NCBI GenBank assembly: GCA_008632985.1 | Contig: QPGO01000023.1 | Span: 555,681 to 619,680, forward strand | Source: Psammoneis japonica | Lineage: Eukaryota | Direction of reading: 5' to 3' | Length of the DNA: 64,000 bases | Shown here: one piece after another, positions 2,561-56,594 of the stretch | Layout: each line of letters opens with the position of its first letter | Numbering within the stretch: position 1 is the stretch's first letter | Position numbers and translations under genes: made by a program | Notes under the pieces: model-generated | What the model saw: only the letters and a program-made list of their open reading frames with translations | What the model was told of the DNA's origin: nothing | Databases searched by the model: none

Positions 2561-3900
2561 AGGCTGGCTGTTGTGAGGAATCCTGCAGAAGCGAGTTTTG
2601 ACAAAGGCCGGCTTCACCACCTGGGTCTTGTGGAAACGTGCCCCCACATTTTCGTCCACTCGAACGCAAAGCAGCACGTTTGTGCCGGTCTTGGAGAACA
2701 CCGTTTTCACGCAAGCCATGGCAATGGACATGCTGAGGCAGGGACCAAATGCGGCCGACGTCACTTGACCTGCAATGATGCTTCCCGTCACATGAGCATT
2801 TCAGCGTTCTCCTCTGGGACCTCAGTCGGGCACACAATGCCTGCGAGCTTTCGTGTCACCTTCTGAAGCCTGCCATCTTTGGTGAGGATGCGATCAGCAC
2901 CCAAGAATCTACCCTCTAGACGTCTGCGACGTGGGACGGTCCAGCCCAAGCTGGCTTCAACAGGGTTCACCGATTCGCCCAACTCCTTGCCCTTGGCACA
3001 GAGACCTGCCTCAAGGCGGAGGGTGTTCAAAGTGGTCAAGCTTCCTGGCATCACGCTGGGGTCTTCCAAGAGTTTGGATGCAAGCAAGACAGCCGACTTG
3101 ACAGCAGGGATGTGAAGCTCAAAGCCATCCTCGCCTGCAAAGCCGCGTCTGCAACAAAAAAGACAATGAAAGTTGGCCAAGCAAGCGGCAGTTTCAATCG
3201 CACGTGATGATGTCGGCACGCAAAGCAAGTGCAGTTGTCATCCTTGCCGAGCAATGTGGTGAACTTCCGTGTCACCAAGAAGACAAGTTTCTTTGTTGGA
3301 CATGAACGCCACGCGTTCCAAGTCAAAGTCCGGTGGAAGCAGCTTCTCCATTGCAGAGGACGAGCCGGGACCTTGCAGGGCCAAGATGGAATGTTGAAAG
3401 CACTCCATTTCAACTTCGCCGCAGAGCAGTTCCAACTGCTTGTTGAAATGCTGTTCGCACCAGTCGTGAGTGGTCATGACAAAGCGATCTCCCACATTTT
3501 TGATGATCGCATCGTCGATGATCCCGCCTGTTTCATTCGTCATGACGGACAAGATGCACCTGCCACGTTCAAGAGAGGCAATGTCTCCTGCAAGAATTCT
3601 CTCCAGGAACTCAACGCAGTCTTTTCCACGCCAAGATGTCTTTTGTCAAAGAGCAAGCACATGGAAAACATGGTTCGATTTAGATTTCATGCAAGAAGCT
3701 GTTTGCAATCCTGCCGGTGCGGACGAGACATGATGAACACACCTGAATGAGAAAGGACAAATCAAAGAGCGCTGCTTTTCCTTCGGAACGGCAGTGAAGG
3801 TGCTCTTGGATGGGTTGGTCGAGGCCGTCACCAACAGACTTTCCCTCTAGCTTGGATAAAAAAGCTTCGTTAACGCACAACAACATTGTCCACTGGCTCC
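2560..3900 (-). pseudogene. gcvT: Glycine cleavage T-protein (aminomethyltransferase)-like pseudogene, intron-containing and TpA-depleted
   Basis: Motifs in order: AALFDLS, FLERILAGDIASL, SVMTNETGGIIDD, LALQGP, GEDGFEL, LRLEAGLC, PVEASLGW, GQVTS..FGPCL..SIAM. Broken into several frames, no Tyr codons, intron donor near 3742. Confidence 0.8.
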
Positions 3901-5408: not shown

Positions 5409-5579
5409 GGTTGTTGTTGCTTTCGTGCTTGTGAGGTGTTGCAATGCGTGCGCGGTCGACGGAAGGATGTCTCCCGGGTTACATTCTGTTGTGTACGACG
5501 AGCAGACGGAAGCATAATTCCGGGTTATGTTACGTGGATGTTGCTTTGATTTTCTCGCGAAAAAGATCCGACCGCCGAC

Positions 5580-6482
5580 ATGCCCATGATGCGATCTTCA
5601 CGACGCCATGGGCAGACATTGCTTGCTCTCTTTTCACTCACCAACACCAGGACGTCAAGTCTGAGTACCTTGAGTGATGTCATTGTTGGATCTTCAACAT
5701 TATCGAAAAGTTCAACCACGTCGTCACGACCGAAACAAACAAGCGTGACATCTAGTAGCTTGCAGCGAGTGTCGCAGAGAAGCGGTATTGTTACACCACC
5801 ACGACACGGTTTCATACTTCCTCGCTTCATGACATCTGCCTATGATGGTGAACCGAGTGATGGCACTGCTGGTTTGTCGGATTTGTCATACATTCCGTAT
5901 GAAACTGCACTCTCCAATGGCATCCAAGTACAGGTTGGTCCGTTTGATGAATCGGAATGGCAAGCAGGCATGGACTTGATGAATTTAATAATCCGTGAGG
6001 GAAAGAGTTGGCCATTTGATGGTGAATTTGAAACCATGGATGCTTACCGGGGTTACTTTATGTCTCACGCTGCCTTTGTGGTGAGAACATTGGAACCTAG
6101 TGTCGACGCAAACGGAAAAGCCGCACCGGAGGGTACTGTCGTGGGCTGTTTTTACATTAAACCCAATTATCCCGGTCGCTGTTCACACATTTGCAATGGT
6201 GGATTCATTACCAATCCAGCCTTTCGACGAATGGGAGTTGCCAAGCTCATGGGACAAGTCTTTTTGCGTTGTGCCCGCGATTTGGGATACAAGTCGGCGT
6301 ACTTTAACCTTGTCTTTGAATCCAATACAGCCAGTGTTGCATTGTGGGAATCATTGGGCTTTCAACGAGTGGCGGTATTGGAAAACGCTGCCGACTTGGA
6401 GGGAGTCGAGGGACTCGACACGGCCTTTGGATACCGTTTCGATTTGGAGAAACTCAGTGATGATTATCTCTTTACGATTTGA
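5580..6482 (+). CDS. GNAT N-acetyltransferase, Mpr1/Spt10-GNAT (azetidine-2-carboxylate acetyltransferase-like) type
   Basis: FYIKPNYPGRCSHICNGGF...RRMGVAKLMG...YFNLVFESNTASVALWESLGF matches this subfamily. The true start may be the later Met (MTSAYD, ~5829). Confidence 0.8.
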   Translation: MPMMRSSRRHGQTLLALFSLTNTRTSSLSTLSDVIVGSSTLSKSSTTSSRPKQTSVTSSSLQRVSQRSGIVTPPRHGFILPRFMTSAYDGEPSDGTAGLSDLSYIPYETALSNGIQVQVGPFDESEWQAGMDLMNLIIREGKSWPFDGEFETMDAYRGYFMSHAAFVVRTLEPSVDANGKAAPEGTVVGCFYIKPNYPGRCSHICNGGFITNPAFRRMGVAKLMGQVFLRCARDLGYKSAYFNLVFESNTASVALWESLGFQRVAVLENAADLEGVEGLDTAFGYRFDLEKLSDDYLFTI

Positions 6483-6880: not shown

Positions 6881-9800
6881 ATGAGCGGTGCATTGGCAGT
6901 TGGTGCTGTGGCGGGTGCCTTGGCATCCCAAGCAGCCCGTCGCTTATCGGGTGAAAATCTGAGTGGCGCGGCAATAAGCGCTTCTGCCAACGACGGTGTG
7001 CAACAGAAAAATGTTGGAATCCTAGCCATGGAGGTTTACACGCCCTCCACTTTTGTCAAGCAAGAAGCACTCGAAGAACATGCCGGAGTGAGCAAGGGGC
7101 GTTATACAATTGGTCTTGGACAAGAGGGATTGGGTGTTTGTGGAGATGCCGAAGACGTCAACAGTCTCTGTTTGACTGTGGTTCATTCACTCTTGGAAAA
7201 GTGAGTAAAGTCCCGGGAAAAAGTTCTTTGTTTTGTTTTTACAACAGTTTTCTGATCTGATTTTGTTTCTTTTGTTCTAATAACTAGGTACGCCATTGAT
7301 CCCTCAGAAGTTGGGCGTCTCGAGGTTGGTACAGAGACGCTCGTTGACAAGTCCAAGAGTACTAAAACGATCTTGATGGATCTGTTTCCCGGCAACACGG
7401 ACATTGAGGGTGCTACCGTTGTCAATGCGTGTTATGGCGGTACAGCCGCATTGTTGAATGCCTTTAATTGGGTAGAAAGCGATGGATGGGATGGACGGTT
7501 TGCCATTGTTGTGGCTGCCGACATTGCTGCCTATGCCCGAGGTCCTGCCCGACCAACCTGTGGTGCCGGTGCAGTGGCTGTCCTTGTCGGACGAGACGCT
7601 CCTCTGTGTGCCAATCCAAAAGAGCGTGCGACACATGCCGCCAATGTATGGGATTTTTTCAAACCAGATCATACCGTGGAATATCCCACTGTGGACGGGG
7701 CTCTGTCACAAGTTTGTTATTATCAAGCGTTGGAGGACTGCTACAATCGCTTTGCGGACAAGATGGATAAACTTGGCAAGGCAGAGCAAAAGTCGTCCTA
7801 TTTTGATGCAGAGTCACCGGACTACTTTTGCTTCCACGCACCCTACAACAAGTTGGTACAGAAATCGTTTGCTCGTTTGTTCTTGTTGGATGCCCGCAGG
7901 GCACACGAACGCATGACGAATTCAGACGCGGAGGAAAAGAAGGAAGCAACACCCAATCAGGAAGCTTTGGCCGAGTGGCTCACCAAACCCATTGAAGAAA
8001 CCTATTCCGACAAGGCACTGGAGGGTGCTCTAAAGAAGCTTGCAGCTCCTGCATACAAGGTGCGCTTGACGGATTCAAATGCAGCGTCCAAGGCTATAGG
8101 CAACACGTACACGGCCAGTGTCTTTTTCGGTTTGGCATCTCTAGTGGATCGCGTCGGTGGAAGAGGAGAATTGACACCCGGTAAACAAGTGGTTGTATTT
8201 AGTTATGGGTCTGGTGCCCTTGCCAGCATGTACAAGCTTCGAGTGTACGTGAGCTCTTGAGAATTATGCAATGCTTTGTTTTCTTGCATAAGTCTCACCT
8301 TATTTGTCATTCTCCTGCATCTCGCTTCTTCAGCCGTGAACCCACATCACAGACTCGTTTCACAGTATCCAAAATGGTGGAAGCCTTGGCTTTGACCAAG
8401 CGATTGGCTTCACGTGAAGAAGTGCACCCATCCGAGTTGGACCACGCCTTGGAAACTCGTGCACGCATGCATCGTGCAGGCGCTCCTACTCTCCCGTGTA
8501 CCCCACTGTTGGACGTCTATTTCCCGGTACTATTATCTCAACGGAATTGATTCCAAATGGACGCGATCCTACTCTCGCGTCCCTCTGGATGCAGCCATGG
8601 TGTCGCATGGTTCGTCTCTGGCGCCTCCTATTGTGCTGCGGCTTCACGATCGGGATGCCGTTTCCACTCCGGTGACTGGCAAACTCGAGGTGCTGACATC
8701 TGCTGCGGCGGGTGACTCGGACAAAATTACAGAGGCTCGTCGTCGTGTCGCTTGTGTCATTACTGGAACATCGGCAGGACTGCCTGGTGGTGGCAAGGTG
8801 TTTCGAGCCGACAACATGGCTCGACTAGTGGCTGGCGAACAGTGCATTGCGCCCATTAGCGGCAGTACAAAAATGGCGCTATTGGATAAGAATGTGGTTC
8901 AGATTAAAAAGCTTCCCGATGGAACAATTAAGCGCATCCCTGTTGACAAGGAATCGCAAGTGGTCAAGCTGGCAGCTCAGCTCGGAAGCCTTGATTTGAC
9001 GGCCTCTTATGGCGTCCCGCCCGGATTGGCGGAAACCATGGATGTTGCTGCACAGGTGGCTGTAGCCGCCGGAATGGAAGCACTCAAGTCTGCAGGTCTC
9101 GTAAGCGGCAAATCGAACTCTCCCGAGGAGTGGAAACTGCCGGAACAATATCGTGATTGCACTGGTGTGGTGTATGCGTCGAGCTTTCCTGCCATGGATG
9201 CCGCAGTGGGCGAAGTAATGCGTTTCTTGCAATCCAAAACAGTTGGCGCGGCCGATACCATGCGCCTGATTTCCGCGCTGAGGAGTCGCCTCTTGCGAGC
9301 TTCTCCCGAGCGAGAGCTGTCGGACGATGATGAGGCTGCTTTTGCCAGGCTCTTGTCTCGCGCACGCGAAACAGATGGCATGAACAGTACGGACGAATTG
9401 TCGGTATCTTCTTCCTACGAGTTTGACCGCAAATTCTTGTTCCGTGTGCTTGTATTGGGAAATGCTCAGCTTGCGCAGCTGGCGGGATGCAGAGGTCCCA
9501 ACACCCAGACGAATGCAGCTTGTGCCGGAACAACACAGGTAAGACTACTGGCGAGACTTGCCTCTTGTTATCCTCTTCGATTGCTTACTCACATTTTCCC
9601 TTTCAAAACAACATAGGCTATTGCTATGGCACAAGACATGCTAATCTCAGGTCGCGCTGAACGTGTGGTAGTCGTTGCTGGCGATAACGGGTCTGGTGAA
9701 ACTCTCCTACCGTGGCTCGGATCGGGCTTTCGTGCACTTGGCGCTGCTTCACTGTTGAGCTGTAGAGGACGCGGCCTGTCCATTCGACTTGCGCAGATCT

Positions 9801-10407
9801 GGTATGCTTCTGGGTGCAGGGGGTATCGGTATGGTTCTCGAAACAGAAACGAGCTCAATAGAACGACTAAAGCTATCCTCGTCCGGTTCCTTTGAGGTGA
9901 AAGCACGTCTTCTGGCAACCCAGTACTCGAATTCTGCATTCCATGGTGCAGCCTTGATAGGAAACACATTGGCTCCGAGCTGAAGCGATTCTTGAATGAT
10001 GTGGAACTGATTCACGGCATTTGCAAAGCTGAGATCGCTACGCACGGTGTGTACTTTTCTCATGAGACTGGCACTCACGCTTCAAGTGCGTCTAGCTGTG
10101 CTGGTAACGAGGTTGCCGGCCTACGCTTTGGGTTCGGTGACGAACTCTTGTCCAAGATGATTATTCTTAACACAAAGGGATATACAGGACATCCAATGGG
10201 TGTGTCGTTTGAGGATGTTGCAGCGGTGGAAGTGCTCATGAAGCAGGTTGTACCAGCAGTCCCAAACTACAAGGAAAAGGATGATACTTGGGAGAACTCA
10301 ACATTTCCAAGGGAGGCCCATACGCTTGCCGCTACGCCTTGAGATTTGCAGCCGGCTTTGGAAGTCAGGTGGCATTCGCTCTCTACGCTACTGCTCAATA
10401 TGAATGA
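6881..10407 (+). CDS. HMGS: HMG-CoA synthase fused to a C-terminal beta-ketoacyl synthase (KS) domain; 4 exons, several apparent 1-nt indel errors
   Basis: HMGS motifs: [67 protein letters not shown] motifs: [40 protein letters not shown]. Introns 7201-7287, 8245-8333 and 9539-9616 (GT..AG, frame-compatible); stop TGA at 10405-10407. Confidence 0.85.
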
Positions 10408-10556
10408 AGCGTACGTGATACAGAAGCAACCCTTGCTACTTCACCATCCTTGATATAACCGCCTATGTAAGTTTCAGTTTATAATAGCAGCTTACCGTTC
10501 TGTAGCTTTAGCATTTTCCCTGAATGTTCTCTGCCGTAGCAGGATTACGGAGCTTT

Positions 10557-11586: not shown

Positions 11587-12378
11587 ATGACTCTGTCAAA
11601 GCATCTGTTGCTCTTTTTGGCATTTACGTGCCCCACATTTGCGTTTTCTACCTCGGCAACCGCTACCGTATTCCACCGAGGCTACAACTTCTTTGGAAAA
11701 CATCCAACAACCACACAGAGTATTGCAGTACATTCCAACTTGTTTCGCTTTCGAGGTGGGGACCAAGAGGCTGAGATTGAACAAGAAAAGCAATTGACCA
11801 ATAGCTTTGCAATGCCCATCCTCTCATCTTTGCGTCACTTGGGCAAGCGTATGGCAATCGCTTGAAAGCAACCCTGTGCCACCAAGAGTGTGACGGCGTG
11901 CTGTATCTTTGCCTTGTCGGATTATGTGGCACAGCGATTCTCAACTGAAGAAAAGGAAAATCACAGTATGATTTGAAGAGAACAATAACCTCGGCTCTGT
12001 GGGGCTTTTATACTTTGGACCGGCGGCGCATGCCTGGTACTATCACATTTTTCGCTTCTTTCCTGGAACGGATTGGCCAGCACCTTGCAAAAGGCAGTCA
12101 TGGGTCAACTGCTCTTTGGTCCATCCTTTACTTGCATTTTTTTTGCCACGTCTCTTTTGAATACTGGCACATTCAGTCTAGGTGCGTGGTGGAACAAAAT
12201 CCGAACAGACCTGCCTGGCACATGGGCTGCCGGACTAGGCTTTTGGCCTTTTGTCGACCTAATCAGTTATTCACTGATTGCTCCCGAATGGATTCCTCTC
12301 TTTGTCAATACGTGCTCCTTTATCTGGACGGTCTATCTAAGTATTGTGGCAAACAGAAGAAGTCAAAAAGAAGAGTAA
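11587..12378 (+). CDS. Mpv17/PMP22 family membrane protein with N-terminal targeting peptide (apparent frameshifts)
   Basis: ATKSVT..IFALSDYVAQ, YFGPAAHAWY, QKAVMGQLLFGPSFT, FWPFVDLISYSLI, LFVNTCSFIWTVYLS are Mpv17/PMP22 hallmarks spread across shifting frames. Confidence 0.8.
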
Positions 12379-15482: not shown

Positions 15483-18400
15483 CTAGGTGGCACCCACTTT
15501 TTGGCGAAAGAAAGTAAACAGTTTCTGCCCGGTCACTGGCCCAGCAACCTTTCTTAGCTCTTCCCGTGACATCTCGGCAAGTTCAGCGATACTGTCGCAT
15601 TCATTCATGATCTTTCGTGCATTGTGCGCATTTACTCCTGGCAATCTAAGAAGCATGTCCCTGCCTGCTTCATTGATCTCATCCTCCTGCTCCTCATTCT
15701 CGTTGTCCTTCAACAACGCCTCAACCGATTCGCTACGGCCGACTTCCACGGCCTTGTCCACGTCCACTTCCTCGTGGTTGGTCTTGAGTTCTCGAAATAT
15801 CTTTGCAGTCTGGTGGGGACTTCTCGACCAAAGGATTCGCAGTTTAGGATGGTGCATGATAAGCAGCGACATCTTGGAACAGGTCGAGTCTGTTCGGATT
15901 TCAACGCCGAGCTCATTTGCATTCTGAAGACTGAAAGACTTTGTTGGGTCAAACTCAATTAACAGACAGGGGCACTTGTAATGTTTCGACATGGATTCCG
16001 CTTGTGTAAAGAGACGTCCACTTGCAAAGCTACCAAATAAGTCGGATATACTCTTTCGCTCGACGCAGTGCACGTTGCTCAGCACAAAGTCACCAACGGT
16101 GAGCGTGACAGGGGCCAATCTCATCCCTTCTTGATGTAGAATGGAGGGTAGCGCAGACCGAAATTCTCGTACGTCTACCGCAATCTCCCGTTTTTCGCCC
16201 TTCGCTCGGGCCTTACCACGGCCAGTGCGAGTGTCCATTGAAAGCGGAAGAGTCCCGCCCGCATAAGTTCCGCCGACTGCGTTGCCTGATGCTACGGCCT
16301 GCTGCATTTCTTGCGTCGTCCCTGCCAAGGTGTAGGTAGGCAAAGGCATAGTCTTCTTGTGATGAATGAGCCGCTCGAAAGCATTCTGCTCGCGTTCCAA
16401 CGCCTTCAAAAACGTCTTCTCCTCGGCACTGGCTTCAAAGAGCATAAAGAAGACTCGCAGTCGATCTTCGTCGGGCTTTCCTTCGGACGTCAGACTACTG
16501 TAAATCTCAACTGCTCGAACAAAGGAAGGATCCGCATCATAGAGGACCACGTAGGATGGCCTAACGTCGTGAAGTAACAAGTTCGCTTCATCCCCTTCCA
16601 CGCTAGCGTAGCTACGAAGCACAACTTTGAGCTCGTTCAATGGCGACACTTTGAATCGTCGTACTTCCCAGTCGGAATCCGAGTCATCCTCTATGCTTTG
16701 GTCTCCCGGCTCTGAAGCGGGTATCTTGCTTTCGTCAGCAGCGTCAAGATCGTGTTCCGTTTGCTCTACAGCCTCATCCAAGACAGCACGACGTTCCAGA
16801 TCGTCGGCCTGAAGCGTCATTTCACCCCGTCCTCGCTCCGTAGCAATTCGTCTTCGCTTCTTCACGTAGTCTGGAACTTCATTCAGCTGCTTGCGCTTCT
16901 CTGGTGACCCTCCATCACCCTGAGCAAAGCCACATTTTCGCCCAAACAGTAAACGTCGAGCCCGACCCTCTTCTTCCAGAAGCAGCCGGCTCTCCTCCGA
17001 AATGGCAGATGTCCCTTTTGCGCTCTTGGTAACGGAACGCGACCTATCGTTGTACCCCTCAAGATATCGCAACCACCGTAGTGTCATTGTCCTTTCTTTT
17101 CCGTCCACAAGATAGGAACGCACTCCTTCAAGTGTCCGTTCGTCCTTGACCATTACTAGAACATTTTCGCCATTAATGGAATCCCCGTTTTGCTTCTTTG
17201 CATCGTGCTCAGTTTTGATCTCTGTCAATACTTTATGGAGTGTCCGCCACTTGGGATTCTCCTCTAGAATAGGTTTCAACTTTGCAACGGGGTTCGGTAC
17301 TTTGGCTGTGGGTTTCGACATGGACAACGTGTAGATTCGTTCCTTGGCTTTACGAAAGAGCAAGTCCGCCGCAGGCGTCAAGAGCCACATGGACGGATAT
17401 CGGGAAGAGACACTCATTGTTTTTATTGAGTTGATGAGTTTCCAAAAGCTGACGCAGTCATAGTGAATCAAGGACTGAAAGAGCGTCCGCAGTGTTCGAA
17501 GATCTTGCACCAATTGTTTGGTCTGCGGACGGAGCCGATGCCAATCTTGTTCAAGTTGCCGCGAAATGGCTCTATCGAAATTGGTGGTTACGCAATTCTC
17601 AATTGATAGGTCTGCGTCCGTCCATTCTAGCAACGTTGTCGATTTCTTGAGCTCTCGAATACATGTCTTGATGGTATTCACAAATTAAGCCAGTCGCTGA
17701 TTAGAGCCGTGAGCTTGCAAATCACACCCGACAGCTTCTTTCCGTGCTTACCTGAACACTAGCAGCAATAGCACCTTGAATCTCCTTCATACGAGGAGAA
17801 AGCTCCTGATGAAGTTCATCTACGTGTGGTGGTGTCCGTTCGAGTTCGTCCGCAACGCTCGAATGAAACCGAGGAAACAGATACAGTTGTCGAACATGGA
17901 GAGCCTTGAGAACCTTGTCCACCTTAGCAAATCCCGACATGAGCGCATCTGGCGCGTCTGAGAAAGCCTTTATGAAACCCAAATCATCGTTGCCTATTAA
18001 TTGTCTCTGTGTGCGATAGATTCTCAGAATAAAAGCTTCAGTCGATTGCTCATTAACCGTTTCCGCATGAGCTACCAAAATGCCGTCAATGTCGCGAGCA
18101 TTAGCGTAATTTGTCAGTAAGTCAACAATCAGGATGCGACTCGTAATAATAAAGACGCCCCCGCGACTGTACATGACGGCGCGGTCTTTGCTTTGTCCAC
18201 TTTCATTGGTGATCAGCGTCGGAAGCAGTTCAGGGGGTGTGCCCCACATTTCCAGCATGTCAATAAGTGCGTTTCGTTCGGATTCTTTTAGGCCAAGAAC
18301 AAATACCAGAGGTGGTTTCATTGGTGTGTGACGTCCTTTCGGATTCCCCTCTTGTTCTTCCGCAATTAGCGCATTGTATCCCTCGTCGACATCACCATAA

Positions 18401-39479: not shown

Positions 39480-39665
39480 TAAAACAAAGCACTCGATTAT
39501 TGTTTCCGTCTCAATCTCCCAATGCTGTCTGCGCGTCCGTTAGGCATTCGTGACCAACTCCGCCGCGCTTCGAATCAACGTCGTACAATTCTACGCAGAT
39601 TCTACGAACCTCCAAACCGCCAAAGCGGCCACGACTTATTAGCACTCGGCACACAAAGAGCGACC

Positions 39666-41115
39666 ATGGAGAATCAGTTTATACCCGCCGCAATCGAGAT
39701 TGTATCCAAGGCAATTGAAGCGGACAACGAGGGAGAGTATGAAAAGGCTCTTAGTCTGTACCGTGACGCCCTTGGTCGATTCACGTTGGGTCTCAAGTAC
39801 GAAAAGAACGAAGCACGAAAGAAACTCATAATCGAACGCGTAGAGGGTTACATGAAACGAGCCGAAGAGCTTCGGGACTATCTCAATAAGCAGTCAGAAC
39901 TCGATAACAAGGGCGGAGGTGGAACGGGTGTCAAGAAGAAAGACGATAAGGATGATGACGATGATGATGCGGAAACGAAGCGTCTCCGTGGAGCGCTTAG
40001 TAGTGCGATTGTTTCTGAAAAACCCGATGTGAAGTGGGACGACGTGGCGGGGCTGACGGCGGCCAAGGAGAGTCTCAAAGAGGTATGTTGAGATGAGGGA
40101 ACACTTACAATGTAGTTATGAATCGATCGAAGGTGTTTTATTCTTTTGTATGGCTCACACACACACCTTTGTATGCAACCCGTAGACTGTGATTATGCCC
40201 ACGCGCTTTCCCCAATTGTTTACGGGCAAGCGTCGCCCCTTCAAGGGTATTTTGCTGTACGGACCACCCGGAACAGGAAAGTCTTACCTCGCAAAAGCGG
40301 TAGCCACAGAAGCAGATTCTACCTTTTACTCTGTATCTTCGGCTGATCTTGTATCGAAATGGCAAGGCGAGTCAGAAAGGTTGGTTCGAAACTTGTTTGA
40401 AATGGCACGAGAATCGCCCGGAGGACGAGCCATTATCTTTATCGATGAAGTGGATTCTCTCTGTGGTTCCCGAAGTGAGGGAGAGTCAGACTCGGCCCGT
40501 CGTATCAAGACTGAGTTTCTTGTACAAATGGACGGCGTTGGCAAGAATGCAGGCAATGTGTTGGTGTTGGGAGCGACCAATGTCCCGTGGGAATTGGATG
40601 CGGCTATTCGACGACGTTTTGAAAAGCGTGTGTATATTCCGCTCCCTGAAAAGGAAGCTAGATCGTACATGGTCAAGCTTCACTTGGGTGACACTCCGAA
40701 CGACCTTTCAGAAGACGACTTTGATCAACTCGGAGAAATTACAGAGGGAGCTTCTGGTTCTGATATCAAAGTCTTGGTCAAGGAGGCTCTTTTAGAGCCT
40801 CTCCGCCGTTGCCAACGGGCCAAACAGTTTGTTCCCGACAAGGACGGCTTTTACGTTCCGTGCGACCGTTATCCCAATTGTCACAAGTGCCCGCCCAAAC
40901 TGAACTCGGATAAGAAGGGCAAGGACTATACCTGTAGGAATTGCGGTGCAGTTCGTATGGAGCTGTGGGATGTGCCACCCGACAAGCTAAGAGCACCCAA
41001 TGTCGAGTACAAGGACTTTAAGAGCTCTCTCAAACACTCTATCGTCACTGTATCTCCCGAGGAACTGGAGCGTTTTACAGAGTGGACCAAGCAGTTTGGG
41101 CAAGAGGGCGCATAG
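39666..41115 (+). CDS. VPS4: Vacuolar protein sorting 4 AAA ATPase (MIT + AAA), 2 exons
   Basis: MIT helices, EKPDVKWDDVAGL, GPPGTGKS, IFIDEVD, RRIKTEFLVQMDGVG, C-terminal FGQEG; intron 40083-40185. Confidence 0.97.
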
Positions 41116-46119: not shown

Positions 46120-46475
46120 GGTGTCAACAACGGAGGGGGGCGAAACAAAACACACAACAACGTTTATTGGTTAGGGGAACTACCTCTACTCTAGCTACTA
46201 GAGAGTGTTGCAACTGAAAACAGAAATTCCAAATTGAAAATGCGAACGCTGCGATGATCTCATTCTGCATTTTTCATTTTTCTCGATTTTTGCTTTCCTT
46301 TTCCTTTTTTCATTGCTTTTTCATCAGGAATTTTTCACACATCCCGACGACCGACGGACCGACGACATTACATACCTTATCGCGAGATGACCAGACCAAT
46401 CCTCACGTTGCTGCTACTTCTAGCCTCTTGTTATCCCTCCCTTTGCTTTATACCTTCACCAAGAAGTAACTTAAC

Positions 46476-48254
46476 ATGTCAAACAATGCATATATCTCCA
46501 TACGAGACGACTCTGGCATACGATCCCTCTCCAACAACGAGCGCAACTTTGTGCGCTCCTGCGCCTTGTCAGAAAATAACTCTTCGAGAGTGTTGCGAGG
46601 CGATGGACGCGGTCCTGGAGATGTGCGCAAGGTCCGATTGACTCTGGGACGATGGCATAATGGAGCGGAATGTACGGTTCAGTGGGGAACTCGAGTATCA
46701 GCGCTCGTGACGGCTGAATTGCTTCCTCCATCGTCCGAACGTCCCTCGGAGGGAACTGTGTCGTTGGCTGTTGATTTGAGTCCAATGGCCTCTAGTTCGT
46801 TTGGGCATGCTCAGCCACTTACAACGACCGGAACTAGTGGAAGTGGTACTGGGGTAAATGTATCTGATGAAACACAAAAGCTCTTGACGAATCGTATTCT
46901 TCGGTGTTTGGAACGCACATTGCTAATTGGAGGTGCGCTCGACACGGAAGCGCTCTGCGTCCAATCGGGAGCATGGGTGTGGCGACTTAATGTGCAGGTG
47001 ACAGTATTGGATCATGGCGGAAATCTCATGGATGCTTCTGTATTGGCGGCTGTTGCAGCTCTACGTCATTATCGCAAACCCCAAGTGGACCTTGCCACCG
47101 ACGCTACTAGCAACGACAGGGTTGCCACTCCCAAACTCGTTCACAGTGATGCTCGAGAACCAACTCCACTCCCCATTCATCATACACCACTTTCCATTAC
47201 CTTTGCCTTGATTCATGCCGATGATGCCAGTTTGAGTACCATGTCGACCAGCACAGTGGCCGCTCTTGTGGATCCCACATACCGCGAAGAACTGGTGCAA
47301 ACTGGAACCATTACGATTGCCATGAATGTACATTCAGAAGTTTGCCTGCTGGACTTTGGAGGTGGATGCGAATTGAAACCGACGCAACTCAAGCAGTGTT
47401 GGAAGCTTGCCGAGGATGCAATTTTGAAGCTTTGTAAAATGTTGGAAGAGACACTCAAGGAAGCAGACGAGAAGGCTCACCAAGATCGACTGAATCGTCT
47501 CGTTGCGGCTTCTAACGCACAGCAAGTTACCAACAACGACGATAACATGCCCGTTACGGAAGATGACGAAGAAGGAATTGCATACCTGGCGAAGCAAGCA
47601 CCCGCGCAAGTGGACACGACATCAGAATTCAAGGATGTAACCTCGGACGTTGCCAAGGCTGCAGCGCAGGTGCAAGAAGAAAAGGAGGAAGAGGAAGCCT
47701 ATCGCTTGAAAGCTTTGGATTATTCACTGGGGCATGTAGCGGCCAAAGTTAAGGAAAATGCACGGGACGATAGTTCAGGTACAAGGAATATATCAGCAAG
47801 TAAGGCACAGGCCATGGCCGGGTCGCTCTTGGCCGCCATGCTTCAATCGGCGCAAGGCATTGCATCAGAACCGGCAATGACGACGGAAAACGGGGACGGC
47901 AAGACACGCAACGCGACGCAAACGTCGTCAACGGATGATGCGGATCAACTCTCTCATACAGAAACAAAAACCAACGATGTTCGTTCCCAAGAAGCAATTG
48001 ACGAGTTTGAGCAATTCGCAAAGCAAAAGCAAAAAGAGGCGGCCGTGCAAAGTATGGAGGTGGACAGCGATGAAGAGGAGACTACCACAATGTTGCAGAG
48101 TGAATTTCAGAACAACCCTGCGCCACCCACAACAACAAAGGCAGCATCAACGAATGGTCCCACCCCAAGCAACGTTGAAGAGGATGATGTGGATGACTTG
48201 GCCATGGCTATTACAAACAAGAAGAAGAAAAAGAAGAAGAAATCGAAAAAGTAG
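46476..48254 (+). CDS. RRP45: Exosome complex component RRP45/EXOSC9 with long acidic C-terminal tail
   Basis: LSNNERNF, RGDGRGPGDVR, LDTEALC, VLDHGGNLMDA, ALRHYRKP, VDPTYREE; poly-Lys C-terminus. Confidence 0.92.
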   Translation: MSNNAYISIRDDSGIRSLSNNERNFVRSCALSENNSSRVLRGDGRGPGDVRKVRLTLGRWHNGAECTVQWGTRVSALVTAELLPPSSERPSEGTVSLAVDLSPMASSSFGHAQPLTTTGTSGSGTGVNVSDETQKLLTNRILRCLERTLLIGGALDTEALCVQSGAWVWRLNVQVTVLDHGGNLMDASVLAAVAALRHYRKPQVDLATDATSNDRVATPKLVHSDAREPTPLPIHHTPLSITFALIHADDASLSTMSTSTVAALVDPTYREELVQTGTITIAMNVHSEVCLLDFGGGCELKPTQLKQCWKLAEDAILKLCKMLEETLKEADEKAHQDRLNRLVAASNAQQVTNNDDNMPVTEDDEEGIAYLAKQAPAQVDTTSEFKDVTSDVAKAAAQVQEEKEEEEAYRLKALDYSLGHVAAKVKENARDDSSGTRNISASKAQAMAGSLLAAMLQSAQGIASEPAMTTENGDGKTRNATQTSSTDDADQLSHTETKTNDVRSQEAIDEFEQFAKQKQKEAAVQSMEVDSDEEETTTMLQSEFQNNPAPPTTTKAASTNGPTPSNVEEDDVDDLAMAITNKKKKKKKKSKK

Positions 48255-54297: not shown

Positions 54298-54648
54298 TGA
54301 CGCTTCGATTACGGGTTCTTCTTCAAAGAAATGGAATGCTTCGCGAACAACGAACTCTGATGAGTATAAACTAAGATGCAAATATGCATAAATATTAAAT
54401 CTGAAATAACCGTCAAAATGGCTAAGAATTTTTTATTGCTTTTATCTATGTACATGAATGTCTTCAATAAGAGCTTGTGATGGGCGATGATGGGGCGATG
54501 ACACCGCACCTCATTTTGTTCTTTCGTAGCGACACTTTTGTTGTGTCAACAGCAAACTCCCTTTGCAACAGTGAAGACTGTTGCTGTACGACTCTGCCTT
54601 GTCTTGGTTCTACAGTGGGGAATCTCGACCAGCGCTTACACCACAACC

Positions 54649-56594
54649 ATGTCAATTTCCCCAGTGGTTCTAGAAAAGGCCAAGCAATGGTCATCACAAG
54701 ATCCTAACCAGAAAACTGCATCACGAGTTCAAGAACTCGTGGCAAGTGCTGAATCTGAACAAGACGAGGAAGCAATCAAAACTCTTACGATGCTATTTCC
54801 GCAAGACGACAAGCGAATTGGATTTGGTACTGCAGGATTGCGAGCCGCCATGAATGTTGGTCCTCTTCGTATGAACGACCTGGTCATTATTCAAACAGCT
54901 CAAGGCTTAGCGCGATATTGTTTATCTCAAACCAGCGATGTCGTGAATGTATCAGACCTTCGTGTGGTGGTTGGGTATGATCATCGAGCTAATCCAGATC
55001 TCGAACTTTCGTCGCTTTCCTTTGCGCTACTGACATCGCTTGTCTTTTCAGAAGCGGGGATTGAATGCGTCTTGTTGGATGGATTTGTTCATACACCACT
55101 TGTTCCCTTTTGTACAATGAGACTGAATGCTGCCTTGGGAATTATGATTACGGCATCCCATAATCCAAAAGAAGATGACGGTTACAAGGTGTATTGGAAT
55201 GATGGGTGTCAGATTCGTCCGCCCGTTGACAGAGGGATTGCATTGTCCATTCTCGACAACTTGACTCCGTGGACCGATTATGGGTTTCTTCTTTCAGCTC
55301 TCAAGGAAAAGAATGAGGATGATCCATGTTTGGGTCTGAGTAGTCCCGATTTGACACAACAAATGCTTTCCAAGTATTTCGATTCTATTCAAAAGAGTGG
55401 GCTCGTGACTGGTCAGGCAAAGTTGCTTGACGAGGAGGGGTGGTCGCCACCCCGAGTAGTATACACAGCCATGCATGGAGTGGGACTTGGCGTGGCACGT
55501 CAATGTTTTGAGGCCTTTTCTCTTCCAACCTTTTTGTATGTCCCGTCTCAAGCATCGCCCGACTATACCTTTCCAACGGTTCCGTTTCCAAATCCCGAAG
55601 AAAAGGGTGCCTTGGATCTGGCCAAGGCGTTTGCAGAAGAAAACGACTGCGACGTGGTTCTAGCCAATGACCCCGATGCTGATCGACTTGCAGTTGCTGA
55701 AAAAGACCGCAAGACAGGAGCATGGACTGTCTTTACGGGTGATCAAATTGGGACCATGCTTGGACATTGGTTGTGGCAGACCATGGGCGAAGATAGCAGC
55801 AAGGTATGCATATGCAAGCTTGCATCTCTAATACTGTATCCGATCATCTCATCTTTTTCCTAAATCCTTGTCTTTGCTAGCCCGTTGCGATGTGTGCGTC
55901 CACCGTGTCTTCCAAAATGCTGGCTGCGATAGCCAAGAAAGAAGGCTTTCACTTTGAAGAAACCCTCACGGGATTCAAGTGGATCGGTTCTCGCTCCGTC
56001 GCCCTTTCTGAAGAAGGCTATCGACCCTTGCTTGGGTATGAAGAGGCACTTGGCTTTTGCTGTGGTGATGTGATATACGACAAGGACGGTGTCAGCGCAC
56101 TTGGAGTCATGACAGAGCTTGCTTACAGTCTCTACCACAAGAAAAAGAGTCTGGCATCGCACATGCAGAATCTATACGATACGTATGGCGAATTCGTCAG
56201 CAACAATGGGTACTTCTTCTGCAACAATCCAAATATTGTACAGAATATTTTGCAAGACATTCGAAATGATGGCAAGTACACGACTACGGTTGGAGACTAC
56301 ACTGTAGAATCCATACGAGACTTGGGCGTGCCCGGATTTGACTCTACAACCCCCGACAAGTTACCAACTCTACCTACTTCACAGTCATCCCCCATGATTA
56401 CCATTCGATTCACCAATGGATGCGTCGCACAGTTTCGAGGAAGTGGGACAGAACCCAAGTTCAAGTACTACATTGAAATGCAAGGCCAACCAGGCGTACC
56501 GAGACCGGAAGTGTCGCGTGATCTGGAGGAAATGTCGAAGGTTCTTTTGGAAGAGCTTCTGAGACCAACGGCCAATGGACTAGTGTCTCCTTGA
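54649..56594 (+). CDS. PGM2: Phosphoglucomutase-2/phosphopentomutase, 2 exons
   Basis: FGTAGLR, ITASHNP, NDPDADR, GYEEALG, DKDGV, RGSGTEPKFKYY; intron 55804-55880. Confidence 0.93.

What the first reader, a model, noticed from the sequence alone, without database searches (positions are those of the whole stretch)
6881..10407. HMG-CoA synthase fused in frame to a catalytically intact ketoacyl synthase
Seen: the HMGS C-terminal motif (LFPGT)[16 protein letters not shown] continues with no stop through a linker into a KS domain within ORF 8414-9616. The KS keeps Cys (NAACAGTT), His (SHETGTH), the Lys/His motif (TKGYTGH) and the terminal AGFGS. Known: mevalonate HMGS needs acetoacetyl-CoA, normally supplied by thiolase. 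Archaea channel it through a thiolase-HMGS complex, and NphT7 makes it by decarboxylative condensation. Polyketide beta-branching cassettes pair an HMGS homologue with a KS whose Cys is usually replaced by Ser. Inference: this may be a single-chain acetoacetyl-CoA synthase/HMGS that channels a malonyl-derived intermediate into the mevalonate pathway, or a branched-lipid/polyketide enzyme. No ACP or enoyl-CoA hydratase gene is seen nearby.
Basis: partly seen in the sequence, partly recalled or inferred. Interest (0 to 1): 0.85.

Follow-up and report, generated by a model that had tools for sequence, protein, structure and literature searches.

The report
Diatom HMG-CoA synthase–ketosynthase fusion gene
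A diatom gene joins the second enzyme of the mevalonate (sterol-precursor) pathway to an active-looking ketosynthase in one protein; many related algae share this fusion, and I found no paper that describes or tests it.

Summary
The fusion is real, but this copy does not read in frame as assembled. Window 6881-10407 (+) is a four-exon eukaryotic gene. It encodes a eukaryote-type HMG-CoA synthase (HMGS), a conserved ~50-aa linker and a ~530-aa ketosynthase (KS').

- **Frame breaks:** The spliced window sequence stops after 497 codons because six single bases are missing at five places. Contigs of two public runs of the same organism carry all six. With them the CDS is 1092 codons, has no internal stop, and is 81% identical end to end to a complete diatom transcript. 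An assembly artefact is most likely.
- **Distribution:** The architecture occurs in diatoms, brown algae, Phaeothamnion and a chrysophyte.
- **KS' domain:** It has a FabF-like fold with an extra helical insert. Its Cys-His-Lys-His set is invariant. It belongs to a separate KS clade that also sits inside prokaryotic KS-AT-KS'-ACP-KR-DH megasynthases.
- **Function (untested):** The best guess (~40%) is that KS' makes an acetoacetyl thioester by decarboxylative condensation and feeds it to HMGS.
- **Literature:** Ten full-text searches found no paper describing the fusion.

Verdict: a new variant of a known kind, of moderate to high interest.

The parts
6881..7200 (+). Exon 1. Start ATG at 6881, then a conserved Ala/Gly-rich N-terminal extension (~45 aa), then the first third of the HMGS N domain.
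   Evidence: PF01154 at E 1.7e-20 on 6881-7198. The donor at 7200|7201 is confirmed by an X1 joint. The sequence was read.
7201..7287 (+). Intron 1 (87 nt, GT..AG).
   Evidence: X1 contig record 1 skips 7201-7287. X2 record 5 reads straight through it, as genomic DNA would (tables 5 and 8).
7288..8244 (+). Exon 2. Rest of the HMGS N domain and most of the C domain. The catalytic Cys codon TGT is at 7430-7432, in NACYGG.
   Evidence: PF01154 at E 6.3e-45 and PF08540 at E 1.7e-53 on 7289-8248. The matching column C150 is kept in 90% or more of the 39 rows of A1.
8245..8333 (+). Intron 2 (89 nt, GT..AG).
   Evidence: X1 records 2 and 3 skip it. X2 records 8 and 9 contain it.
8334..8578 (+). First part of exon 3: the HMGS C-terminus up to ...[16 protein letters not shown]. 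Two single-base gaps break the frame here, after 8486 and after 8527.
   Evidence: The text is spread over three frames. X1 and X2 contigs have T after 8486 and A after 8527, at full depth in both runs (table 4). Orthologues read [26 protein letters not shown] without a break.
8579..8737 (+). Conserved linker (VPLDAAM...LAPPIVLRL...PVTGKLEVL...EARRR).
   Evidence: Same ORF as the KS. Mean pairwise identity among 36 diatom rows is 59% (67% in the first half). Confidence is low in both AlphaFold models.
8738..9538 (+). Rest of exon 3: the KS' N-terminal half, including a ~100-aa helical insert and the active-site Cys (TGT at 9521-9523, in NAACAGTTQ).
   Evidence: PF00109 at E 3.6e-5 on 8528-9538. 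A phmmer search with 8690-9538 found 796 relatives at E<=0.001. The Cys is kept in 218 of 218 full-length KS' members.
9539..9616 (+). Intron 3 (78 nt, GT..AG).
   Evidence: X1 record 4 skips it; the joint is given as 9536->9615 with 'cut +2'.
9617..10407 (+). Exon 4: the KS' C-terminal half. His codon CAT at 10061-10063 (SHETGTH), Lys AAG at 10175-10177 and His CAT at 10190-10192 (TKGYTGH), AGFGS at 10351-10365, stop TGA at 10405-10407. Frame is broken after ~9750 and ~9758 (two bases), ~9952 and ~10284.
   Evidence: Frames. Extra bases are seen in X1 and/or X2 contigs at 9749/9750, 9757/9758, 9952 (X1 only; X2 has no cover there) and 10283/10284 (table 4). His, Lys and His are invariant in A1.

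Best explanation
**What it is (shown; about 0.95).** This is a nuclear four-exon gene of a diatom. It encodes a ~1092-aa two-enzyme protein with three parts:
- an N-terminal eukaryote-type HMG-CoA synthase;
- a conserved ~50-aa linker;
- a C-terminal ~530-aa ketosynthase of a distinct clade (KS'). KS' has a FabF/KAS II-type thiolase fold, a ~100-aa helical insert, and a full Cys-His-Lys-His decarboxylating set.

The fusion is old. It is shared by diatoms, brown algae, Phaeothamnion and a chrysophyte.

**State of this copy (inferred; about 0.8).** As assembled, the window copy lacks six single bases. This is most likely an assembly or consensus artefact in a heterozygous stretch, not a dead gene.

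**How it works (inferred; about 0.4).**
1. The KS' Cys is loaded with acetyl.
2. KS' decarboxylates a malonyl thioester. Malonyl-CoA is the simplest candidate, because the protein has no ACP.
3. This forms an acetoacetyl thioester.
4. The HMGS half, sitting beside KS' in a dimer-of-dimers, condenses that product with acetyl-CoA to give HMG-CoA.

The result would be an irreversible, CO2-driven entry to the mevalonate pathway that does not depend on the unfavourable thiolase equilibrium. The single confidence figure below refers to this whole statement, mechanism included.
For: **Gene model and frame repair**
- Three GT..AG joints appear in X1 contigs, and six extra bases appear in X1/X2 contigs.
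- The repaired CDS has 1092 codons and no internal stop. It is 81.2% identical to P0001 over 1091 columns.
- It matches 181 of 181 invariant columns and 340 of 346 nearly invariant columns of A1.
- 33 of the 40 listed substitutions between window and contigs are synonymous in the repaired frame, and 32 fall on codon position 3.
- Other long ORFs in the window are intact (733, 594 and 453 aa). The split phosphoglucomutase is an ordinary intron.

**HMGS identity**
- TIGR01833 scores 527 bits against a cut-off of 286.
- Best PDB sequence matches are plant and human HMGS, at 1e-126 to 1e-109.

**KS'**
- The model has pLDDT 81.3.
- Foldseek ranks FabF first, with TMt up to 0.88.
- VIA-align gives actinorhodin KS Z 49.2 and FabF Z 48.0, against 26.7 or less for thiolases and type III enzymes.
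- C803, H957, K995 and H1000 are invariant in 39 fused sequences and in 218 of 218 family members, as are Thr-x-Thr (217 of 218; one member has Ser at both positions) and the gate Phe.
- KS' is as conserved among 36 diatom rows as HMGS (78.8% against 75.6%).
- No PP-binding hit was found on P0001 or P0080.

**Breadth**
- Searches give the lineages that carry the fusion.
- In prokaryotes, KS' sits as a second active KS in KS-AT-KS'-ACP-KR-DH synthases next to acetyl-CoA carboxylase genes. That fits a chain-starting role, but this is inference.
Against: - There is no biochemical evidence of any kind.
- KAS I/II-type enzymes normally take malonyl-ACP, not malonyl-CoA.
- Every verified non-algal context of KS' includes or adjoins ACP domains.
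- None of the 4 prokaryotic loci I inspected, out of 80 kept, has an HMGS nearby.
- Pathway schemes for Phaeodactylum list an acetoacetyl-CoA thiolase (figure legend in PMC10276504), so a thiolase route may exist as well.
- Unfused KS' occurs in a pelagophyte, a haptophyte, a centrohelid and a glaucophyte, so KS' need not serve HMGS.
- Seminavis has a 504-aa HMGS model that ends inside the linker.
- The full-length AlphaFold model gives no confident domain contact (pTM 0.50).
- On the artefact reading: the six gaps cluster within 1.8 kb while the rest of the window looks clean, and no listed contig matches the window exactly in 8434-10449. A recently broken allele or a strain difference is therefore not excluded.
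Confidence: 0.45

Rival explanations
1. KS' is an ACP-dependent condensing enzyme, used with a carrier protein supplied in trans. It serves a lipid or polyketide route unrelated to mevalonate. The fusion to HMGS would then reflect co-regulation, shared location or shared acetyl-CoA supply rather than hand-over of a product.
For: - KS' relatives are embedded in KS-AT-KS'-ACP-KR-DH megasynthases or fused to ACP (P0264, P0257, P0168) (L001, L004, L078).
- The fold is KAS II/type II PKS-like.
- Unfused KS' exists in algae from other lineages.
Against: - The fusion has been kept across diatoms, brown algae, a phaeothamniophyte and a chrysophyte, with a conserved linker. That is hard to explain without functional coupling.
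- The polypeptide has no ACP, AT, KR or DH domain.
- No ACP was found among 135 window ORFs of 110 aa or more, though shorter ORFs were not scanned.
Confidence: 0.25
2. The window copy is a genuinely broken (pseudogenised) allele or paralogue of the fusion gene, and the organism relies on an intact second copy.
For: - Six single-base gaps cluster in 8486-10284 while the other genes in the window are intact.
- The X1/X2 contigs differ from the window by further substitutions in this stretch, and none of the listed contigs matches it exactly.
- X2 shows two haplotype contigs elsewhere in the gene (records 8 and 9).
Against: - All six lesions are one-base losses. There is no nonsense codon or larger indel.
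- 181 of 181 invariant residues are kept after repair.
- 33 of 40 listed differences are synonymous.
- At all six places every covering contig carries the base (table 4). At the two 9750-region sites and the 10284 site, X1 and X2 place it one position apart with a different letter.
Confidence: 0.15
3. The protein is a polyketide beta-branching enzyme: an HMGS-cassette homologue plus KS acting on ACP-bound beta-keto intermediates, as in PksG or CurD systems.
Against: - The HMGS half passes the eukaryotic HMGS equivalog (527 bits against 286).
- It is far closer to plant and human HMGS (1e-126 to 1e-109) than to CurD or PksG (1.6e-16, 3.3e-15).
- KS keeps Cys rather than Ser.
- No ACP or enoyl-CoA hydratase domain is present in the protein or the window.
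- Papers on Phaeodactylum treat the diatom gene as the mevalonate-pathway HMGS (passages read).
Confidence: 0.05
4. KS' is catalytically silent here and serves as a dimerisation, scaffolding or regulatory module for HMGS.
For: Both halves belong to obligate-dimer thiolase-fold families (recalled knowledge). No activity has been shown.
Against: - Cys, His, Lys, His and the gate Phe are invariant in all 218 family members, and Thr-x-Thr in 217.
- KS' is as conserved as HMGS. That would be unexpected for a pure scaffold.
Confidence: 0.07

Closest known systems
Eukaryotic cytosolic HMG-CoA synthase (plant HMGS PDB 2f82/7cqt; human HMGCS1 2p8u)
   Same: The N-terminal ~490 aa align end to end (E 1e-126 to 1e-111). 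They pass TIGR01833 and keep the NACYGG Cys.
   Different: It carries a conserved hydrophobic N-terminal extension and a ~580-aa C-terminal linker plus KS'. The solved plant and human HMGS chains matched (450-478 aa) have no such extension.
KAS II / FabF and type II PKS ketosynthases (for example 9lpl, 4ls8; actinorhodin KS 1tqy_A)
   Same: Same fold (Z 48-49, rmsd 2.1-2.4 over ~400 residues; TMt up to 0.88). Same Cys-His-His-Lys set, Thr-x-Thr and gate Phe.
   Different: Only 18-26% identical. It scores 87 bits on the fabF equivalog against a cut-off of 494. It has a ~100-aa helical insert and a divergent N-terminal half that found no PDB match by sequence. There is no ACP partner in cis.
NphT7 acetoacetyl-CoA synthase (Streptomyces; recalled, not fetched)
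   Same: The proposed chemistry is the same: acetyl-CoA plus malonyl-CoA gives acetoacetyl-CoA plus CO2, feeding HMGS.
   Different: NphT7 is a KAS III-type Cys-His-Asn enzyme (recalled). KS' has Cys-His-His and is structurally nearer FabF than any KAS III or type III enzyme listed. Any likeness would be convergent.
Archaeal thiolase-HMGS-DUF35 channelling complex (PDB 6esq/6et9)
   Same: An HMGS is physically coupled to the thiolase-fold enzyme expected to make its acetoacetyl substrate. The 6esq HMGS chain is a distant sequence match to the HMGS half (E 5.8e-11).
   Different: There the partner is a non-decarboxylating thiolase held by a DUF35 scaffold. Here it is a covalent fusion to a decarboxylating-type KS, and no DUF35 hit was found.
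FabY of Pseudomonas aeruginosa (PDB 4cw4), an enlarged KAS I/II-type initiating synthase
   Same: Both are oversized KAS I/II-fold enzymes of about 600 aa. FabY starts chains from acetyl-CoA (recalled), which is the role proposed for KS'.
   Different: Only a middling structural match (Z 32.5, against 48-49 for FabF and act KS). There was no sequence hit at E<=0.01. They are not the same clade.
Diatom IDI-SQS fusion
   Same: Another isoprenoid-pathway enzyme fusion in diatoms, described in passages of PMC12168105 and PMC6330534.
   Different: It joins different enzymes and steps. That fusion is recognised in print, whereas this one was not found in print.

Membership tests
Eukaryotic HMG-CoA synthase (TIGR01833; Pfam PF01154 + PF08540) | Scores above the curated family cut-offs over the full domain length. 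| tested here: met
   The window exons hit PF01154 and PF08540 far above cut-off. Orthologue P0001 scores 527 bits on TIGR01833 against 286, covering profile positions 3-456 of 457. The window's own C-terminal ~90 aa could only be scored in pieces because of the frame breaks.
Eukaryotic HMG-CoA synthase (TIGR01833; Pfam PF01154 + PF08540) | Catalytic Cys (NACYGG), Glu and His are present. The roles of these residues are recalled, not taken from a call. | tested here: met
   The Cys codon lies at 7430-7432. Columns C150, E118 and H276 are kept in 90% or more of the 39 fused sequences.
Eukaryotic HMG-CoA synthase (TIGR01833; Pfam PF01154 + PF08540) | Makes HMG-CoA from acetyl-CoA and acetoacetyl-CoA. 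| not testable with these tools
   This needs an enzyme assay. Papers on Phaeodactylum treat the orthologue as the pathway HMGS without assaying it (passages read).
KAS I/II-type decarboxylating ketosynthase (FabB/FabF, type I/II PKS KS) | Thiolase fold closest to FabF or type II KS. | tested here: met
   Actinorhodin KS Z 49.2 and FabF Z 48.0, against thiolases at 26.7 or less. FabF gives Foldseek E 2e-26 and TMt 0.84-0.88. The model is of orthologue P0039 (pLDDT 81.3).
KAS I/II-type decarboxylating ketosynthase (FabB/FabF, type I/II PKS KS) | Cys-His-His triad plus the conserved Lys. | tested here: met
   All are present in the window (codons at 9521, 10061, 10175 and 10190). They are invariant in A1 and in 218 of 218 members.
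KAS I/II-type decarboxylating ketosynthase (FabB/FabF, type I/II PKS KS) | Membership of the FabF equivalog itself (TIGR03150 cut-off). | tested here: not met
   87.4 bits against a cut-off of 493.75. On the tree, KS' is separated by a long branch from the canonical KS domains of the same megasynthases.
KAS I/II-type decarboxylating ketosynthase (FabB/FabF, type I/II PKS KS) | Uses malonyl-ACP as the extender. | not testable with these tools
   The fused protein has no PP-binding domain. Relatives do sit with ACP domains.
NphT7-type acetoacetyl-CoA synthase (KAS III-like) | KAS III-type Cys-His-Asn triad and FabH-like fold (recalled definition). | tested here: not met
   The triad is Cys-His-His. 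Type III and KAS III-like chains score Z of about 24-26, against 48-49 for KAS II. NphT7 itself was not compared.
Polyketide beta-branching HMGS cassette (PksG/CurD type) | HMGS homologue of the ACP-dependent clade, a KS with Cys replaced by Ser, and ACP and ECH partners (recalled definition). | tested here: not met
   CurD and PksG match at 1.6e-16 and 3.3e-15, against 1e-126 for plant HMGS. The KS Cys is retained. No PP-binding or ECH hit was found in the protein or in 135 window ORFs.
FabY-class initiating ketosynthase | Close structural or sequence kinship with P. aeruginosa FabY (4cw4). | tested here: inconclusive
   Z is 32.5, ranked 36th and below FabF. FabY was not among the 48 sequence hits. 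The two share only the superfamily.

The most novel reading that the evidence does not exclude
Ochrophyte algae (diatoms, brown algae, chrysophytes) may start the mevalonate pathway without relying on thiolase. In this reading, a ketosynthase fused to HMG-CoA synthase drives acetoacetyl formation by malonyl decarboxylation and passes the product directly to HMGS. That would be a third, independent solution to the unfavourable first step, beside the archaeal thiolase-HMGS channel and bacterial NphT7. More broadly, KS' would define an unrecognised class of chain-starting ketosynthases. The same class would also prime the KS-AT-KS'-ACP-KR-DH synthases found next to acetyl-CoA carboxylase in Acidobacteriota, Actinomycetota, Chloroflexota, Thermoplasmatota and Asgard archaea.
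Probability: 0.33. Interest if true: 0.8.

Novelty: new variant of a known kind. Interest (0 to 1): 0.6.

Why it matters
**Known parts, undescribed combination.** HMGS and ketosynthases are textbook enzymes. Their covalent union has been kept since the common ancestor of diatoms and brown algae, and it appears undescribed. The gene is annotated simply as HMGS or as KAS I. Gene models often split it at the second intron or truncate it near the junction.

**If KS' supplies acetoacetyl units:**
- It would change how carbon entry into sterols and other cytosolic isoprenoids is understood in major marine primary producers.
- It would link that entry to cytosolic malonyl-CoA supply.
- It would offer engineers a self-contained, irreversible two-step module.

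**Practical point.** Expression constructs or knock-outs that treat diatom HMGS as a ~470-aa enzyme would omit half of the protein.

**Wider question.** The KS' clade is also common in uncultured bacteria and archaea (at least 597 loci). The role of a second active KS in those synthases is open as well.

Tried and rejected

- No whole genome is held for this window. I could not look for a second copy, an ACP or a cytosolic thiolase in the same organism.
- No RNA holder was listed for the stretch. X1 is recorded as 'DNA?' (guessed), although its contigs are spliced.
- X3 held next to none of the sampled words, and nothing from it could be laid.
- Complex prediction of the HMGS half with the KS' half was not folded under a rule of that tool.

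**Weak or empty results**
- phmmer of the KS' N-terminal half against PDB sequences found 0 hits at E<=1.
- The full-length AlphaFold model of P0001 has mean pLDDT 69.6 and pTM 0.50, with a low-confidence linker. I draw no domain arrangement from it.

**Ideas dropped**
- I considered FabY as the nearest relative and dropped it.
- I considered RNA editing or programmed frameshifting for the frame breaks and rejected both. The unspliced genomic contigs of X2 carry the extra base at five of the six places and do not cover the sixth, at 9952.
- I considered a genome-wide error rate and rejected it. Other long ORFs are intact, and two apparent splits are explained by introns. The PGM intron is at 55806-55881. 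For GCV_T, a ~100-nt in-frame gap is inferred.

**Correction to the tree**
- My group label 'with_ACP' was wrong for P0165, P0183, P0197 and P0209. They have no PP-binding hit. Only P0264, P0257 and P0168 are verified.
- P0160 and P0169, labelled 'mid_other', are partial HMGS fusions.
- The tree used 64 rows that I chose out of 218 full-length members.

**Literature**
- I made ten full-text searches and read passages of eight papers. None mentions the fusion.
- Two subscription papers most likely to bear on it are not held: New Phytol 2019 on Haslea and New Phytol 2014 on Phaeodactylum sterols. No supplements were read.


Full report
**1. What is in the sequence**

The region is a eukaryotic, intron-bearing gene on the + strand.
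- Reading, the start ATG is at 6881.
- The exons are 6881-7200, 7288-8244, 8334-9538 and 9617-10407, with the stop TGA at 10405-10407.
- Contigs of run X1 skip all three introns (87, 89 and 78 nt, GT..AG). Contigs of run X2 contain them (tables 5 and 8).
- Pfam places HMG_CoA_synt_N and HMG_CoA_synt_C on exons 1-2. It gives a weak ketoacyl-synt hit (23.9 bits, cut-off 20.8) on 8528-9538. Four of the eight pieces scanned gave nothing.

**2. The copy in the window is not in frame**

The HMGS C-terminus, which orthologues read as [26 protein letters not shown], is spread over three frames in the window. The KS C-terminal half changes frame three more times. Spliced as it stands, the gene stops after 497 codons.

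Laying the contigs of the two runs that hold the stretch shows one extra base at six places. The runs share 0.71 and 0.67 of the sampled words and come from one sample and one study. The places are after 8486, 8527, 9749/9750, 9757/9758, 9952 and 10283/10284. Every contig that covers a place carries the base; at 9952 only X1 has cover (table 4).

With those bases added:
- The CDS is 1092 codons without an internal stop. It aligns with the complete transcript P0001 at 81.2% identity over 1091 columns.
- The repaired protein agrees with 181 of 181 invariant and 340 of 346 nearly invariant columns of an alignment of 39 fused orthologues.
- Of the 40 listed substitutions between window and contigs (44 more were not shown), 33 are synonymous and 32 lie on third codon positions.

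The rest of the window looks sound. ORFs of 733, 594 and 453 aa are intact, and an apparent split in a phosphoglucomutase gene is an ordinary intron.

I conclude that the six one-base losses are most likely consensus errors in a heterozygous stretch. X2 shows two haplotype contigs nearby (records 8 and 9). A very recently broken allele cannot be excluded, because no listed contig matches the window exactly between 8434 and 10449.

**3. One transcript, one protein**

- X1 record 4 (1944 nt, spliced) runs from 8434 in the HMGS C-terminus through the linker and the whole KS to 10449.
- Records 1-3 overlap it in a chain back to 6936.
- X1 is on record only as 'DNA?'. Its lack of all three introns suggests a cDNA library, but that is an inference.
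- There is independent support. By my count, 51 of the 120 listed relatives of the KS piece are 960-1200-aa proteins carrying PF01154+PF08540+PF00109. Several are MMETSP transcripts marked 'type:complete'.
- The other 69 listed relatives are shorter. 62 begin inside the HMGS C domain, and 7 show KS families only.
- Such short forms are at least partly annotation splits. In one Bacillariaceae MAG, neighbouring locus tags hold the two halves, cut at the exon 2/3 boundary.

**4. The two halves**

*HMGS half*
- It passes the eukaryotic equivalog TIGR01833 (527 bits against 286).
- It matches plant and human HMGS structures by sequence at 1e-126 to 1e-109. Polyketide HMGS homologues CurD and PksG match only at 1e-16 to 1e-15.

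*KS half*
- It matches FabF-type profiles only distantly (87 bits against a cut-off of 494).
- Its N-terminal half found no PDB sequence match.
- A model of orthologue P0039 (42-row alignment, pLDDT 81.3, pTM 0.78) is closest to FabF by Foldseek (TMt up to 0.88).
- By VIA-align it is closest to actinorhodin KS (Z 49.2) and FabF (Z 48.0). It is well above yeast FAS KS (32.9), FabY (32.5), thiolases (26.7 or less) and type III enzymes (about 24-26).
- A helical insert of roughly 100 residues (model residues 241-340) has no counterpart in FabF.
- Cys, His, Lys and His are invariant in the 39 fused sequences.

*Conservation and domain arrangement*
- Among 36 diatom rows, KS' is as conserved as HMGS (78.8% against 75.6%). 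The linker stands at 59%.
- No carrier-protein domain is detected in P0001 or P0080.
- The full-length model is too uncertain to show how the halves sit together (pTM 0.50).
- The complex job was not folded under a rule of that tool.

**5. The KS' family**

A phmmer search of 1.84 billion representatives with the KS' N-terminal half found 796 relatives at E<=0.001, of which 172 are at E<=1e-30.

A Pfam scan of 26 of them and 14 more shows these architectures:
- HMGS-KS' fusions;
- proteins with only KS hits;
- KS'-ACP (P0264, P0257);
- AT-KS'-ACP (P0168);
- ~3000-aa KS-AT-KS'-ACP(n)-KR-DH proteins, some ending in a phosphopantetheinyl transferase (P0162, P0171, P0173, P0178).

A profile of the diatom KS' aligns end to end with 218 of the 440 stored proteins. 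All 218 keep Cys, His, Lys, His and the gate Phe, and 217 keep Thr-x-Thr.

On a quick maximum-likelihood tree of 64 chosen rows, rooted on the canonical first KS of four megasynthases:
- All HMGS-fused forms fall in one derived clade (support 99 for 32 rows).
- That clade is nested among megasynthase and other KS' forms. My labelling errors on this tree are listed under Tried and rejected.

Names given by the sources place the family as follows:

| Form | Lineages |
|---|---|
| Fused HMGS-KS' | Many diatoms, Scytosiphon, Ectocarpus (partial model), Phaeothamnion, a Hydrurales chrysophyte |
| Unfused KS' | Aureoumbra, Pterocystis, Prymnesium, Cyanophora |

In prokaryote genomes at least 597 loci encode a relative. 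They span Acidobacteriota, Actinomycetota, Chloroflexota, Myxococcota, Thermoplasmatota and Asgard archaea.

I inspected 4 of the 80 loci kept:
- In three, the megasynthase lies beside acetyl-CoA carboxylase genes, acyl-CoA dehydrogenase with electron-transfer flavoprotein, or an ER-KS-AT protein.
- The fourth (Nostocoides) has a KS' followed by a glycosyltransferase.
- None has an HMGS.

**6. How it most likely works**

*Shown:* an HMGS of the mevalonate type and a ketosynthase with a complete decarboxylating catalytic set are one polypeptide. This has been kept under purifying selection across ochrophyte algae.

*Inferred:* because HMGS needs an acetoacetyl thioester, and a Cys-His-His KS makes beta-ketoacyl thioesters from malonyl units, the simplest reading is as follows. 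KS' makes acetoacetyl-CoA, or an enzyme-held equivalent, and hands it to HMGS. I give this about 40%.

*For it:* the persistence of the fusion, the conserved linker, the absence of other PKS/FAS domains, and the position of KS' as a second active KS in synthases that otherwise lack an obvious starter module.

*Against it:* the ACP-rich company of all non-algal relatives, the existence of unfused KS' in other algae, thiolase entries in published Phaeodactylum pathway schemes (figure legend), and the total lack of assays.

The rivals are scored in their own section. They are ACP-dependent work unrelated to mevalonate, a broken allele, beta-branching, and a silent scaffold.

**7. Comparison with what is known, and novelty**

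- The protein is a member of eukaryotic HMGS by every sequence test made.
- Its C-terminal half belongs to the KAS I/II superfamily but not to the FabF equivalog.
- It may work like NphT7 or like the archaeal thiolase-HMGS complex, but it is a member of neither.
- Ten full-text searches and passages of eight papers gave no description of the fusion. Papers on Phaeodactylum refer to the gene as plain HMGS. Two subscription papers that might mention it were not available.
- The architecture is visible in public databases, so the sequence itself is not new. The recognition that it is ochrophyte-wide, catalytically intact and tied to a widespread KS' clade appears to be new.

I rate it a new variant of a known kind, with interest 0.6.

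Noticed in passing
window 6881-7015: The ~45-aa extension before the HMGS domain ([23 protein letters not shown]...) is Ala/Gly-rich and hydrophobic. A similar motif heads the diatom consensus. The more distant fused protein P0147 has a clearly membrane-like segment in the same place. It may be a membrane anchor or a targeting signal.
   Followed up: no
L001:3172-15721, L004:7052-14887, L078:6111-19721: Prokaryotic KS-AT-KS'-ACP-KR-DH(-PPT) megasynthases carry two catalytically complete KS domains. They lie next to acetyl-CoA carboxylase genes, acyl-CoA dehydrogenase/ETF genes or an ER-KS-AT protein. One example is in a Heimdallarchaeum (Asgard) genome. This looks like a self-contained type I fatty-acid/polyketide system.
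   Followed up: partly
protein P0413 (1521 aa): This protein has two consecutive HMGS units (two stretches each of PF01154 and PF08540) before one KS'. It is either a tandem duplication or a merged gene model.
   Followed up: no
proteins P0302, P0314, P0357/P0027: Public diatom HMGS entries are truncated at or near the junction. The Seminavis model (504 aa) ends inside the linker. The Haslea entry (412 aa) and a Bacillariaceae MAG model (460 aa) end exactly at the exon 2/3 boundary, and the KS half of the MAG gene carries the neighbouring locus tag.
   Followed up: partly
window 2791-3645 (-): An aminomethyltransferase (GCV_T) gene is read as two same-frame ORFs separated by a stop. The gap of about 100 nt between the profile matches fits a short in-frame intron.
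   Followed up: no
window 5550-6479, 11989-12375, 15486-17684, 39483-41112, 46470-48251, 54502-56591: The neighbouring genes by Pfam are a GNAT acetyltransferase, an Mpv17/PMP22 protein, an ERCC4 nuclease, Vps4 (MIT+AAA), an RNase PH-like protein and a phosphoglucomutase. None has an evident link to isoprenoid or fatty-acid synthesis.
   Followed up: no
L042:9545-13798: In Nostocoides australiense an unfused KS' is followed in the same open frame by a family 2 glycosyltransferase domain.
   Followed up: no
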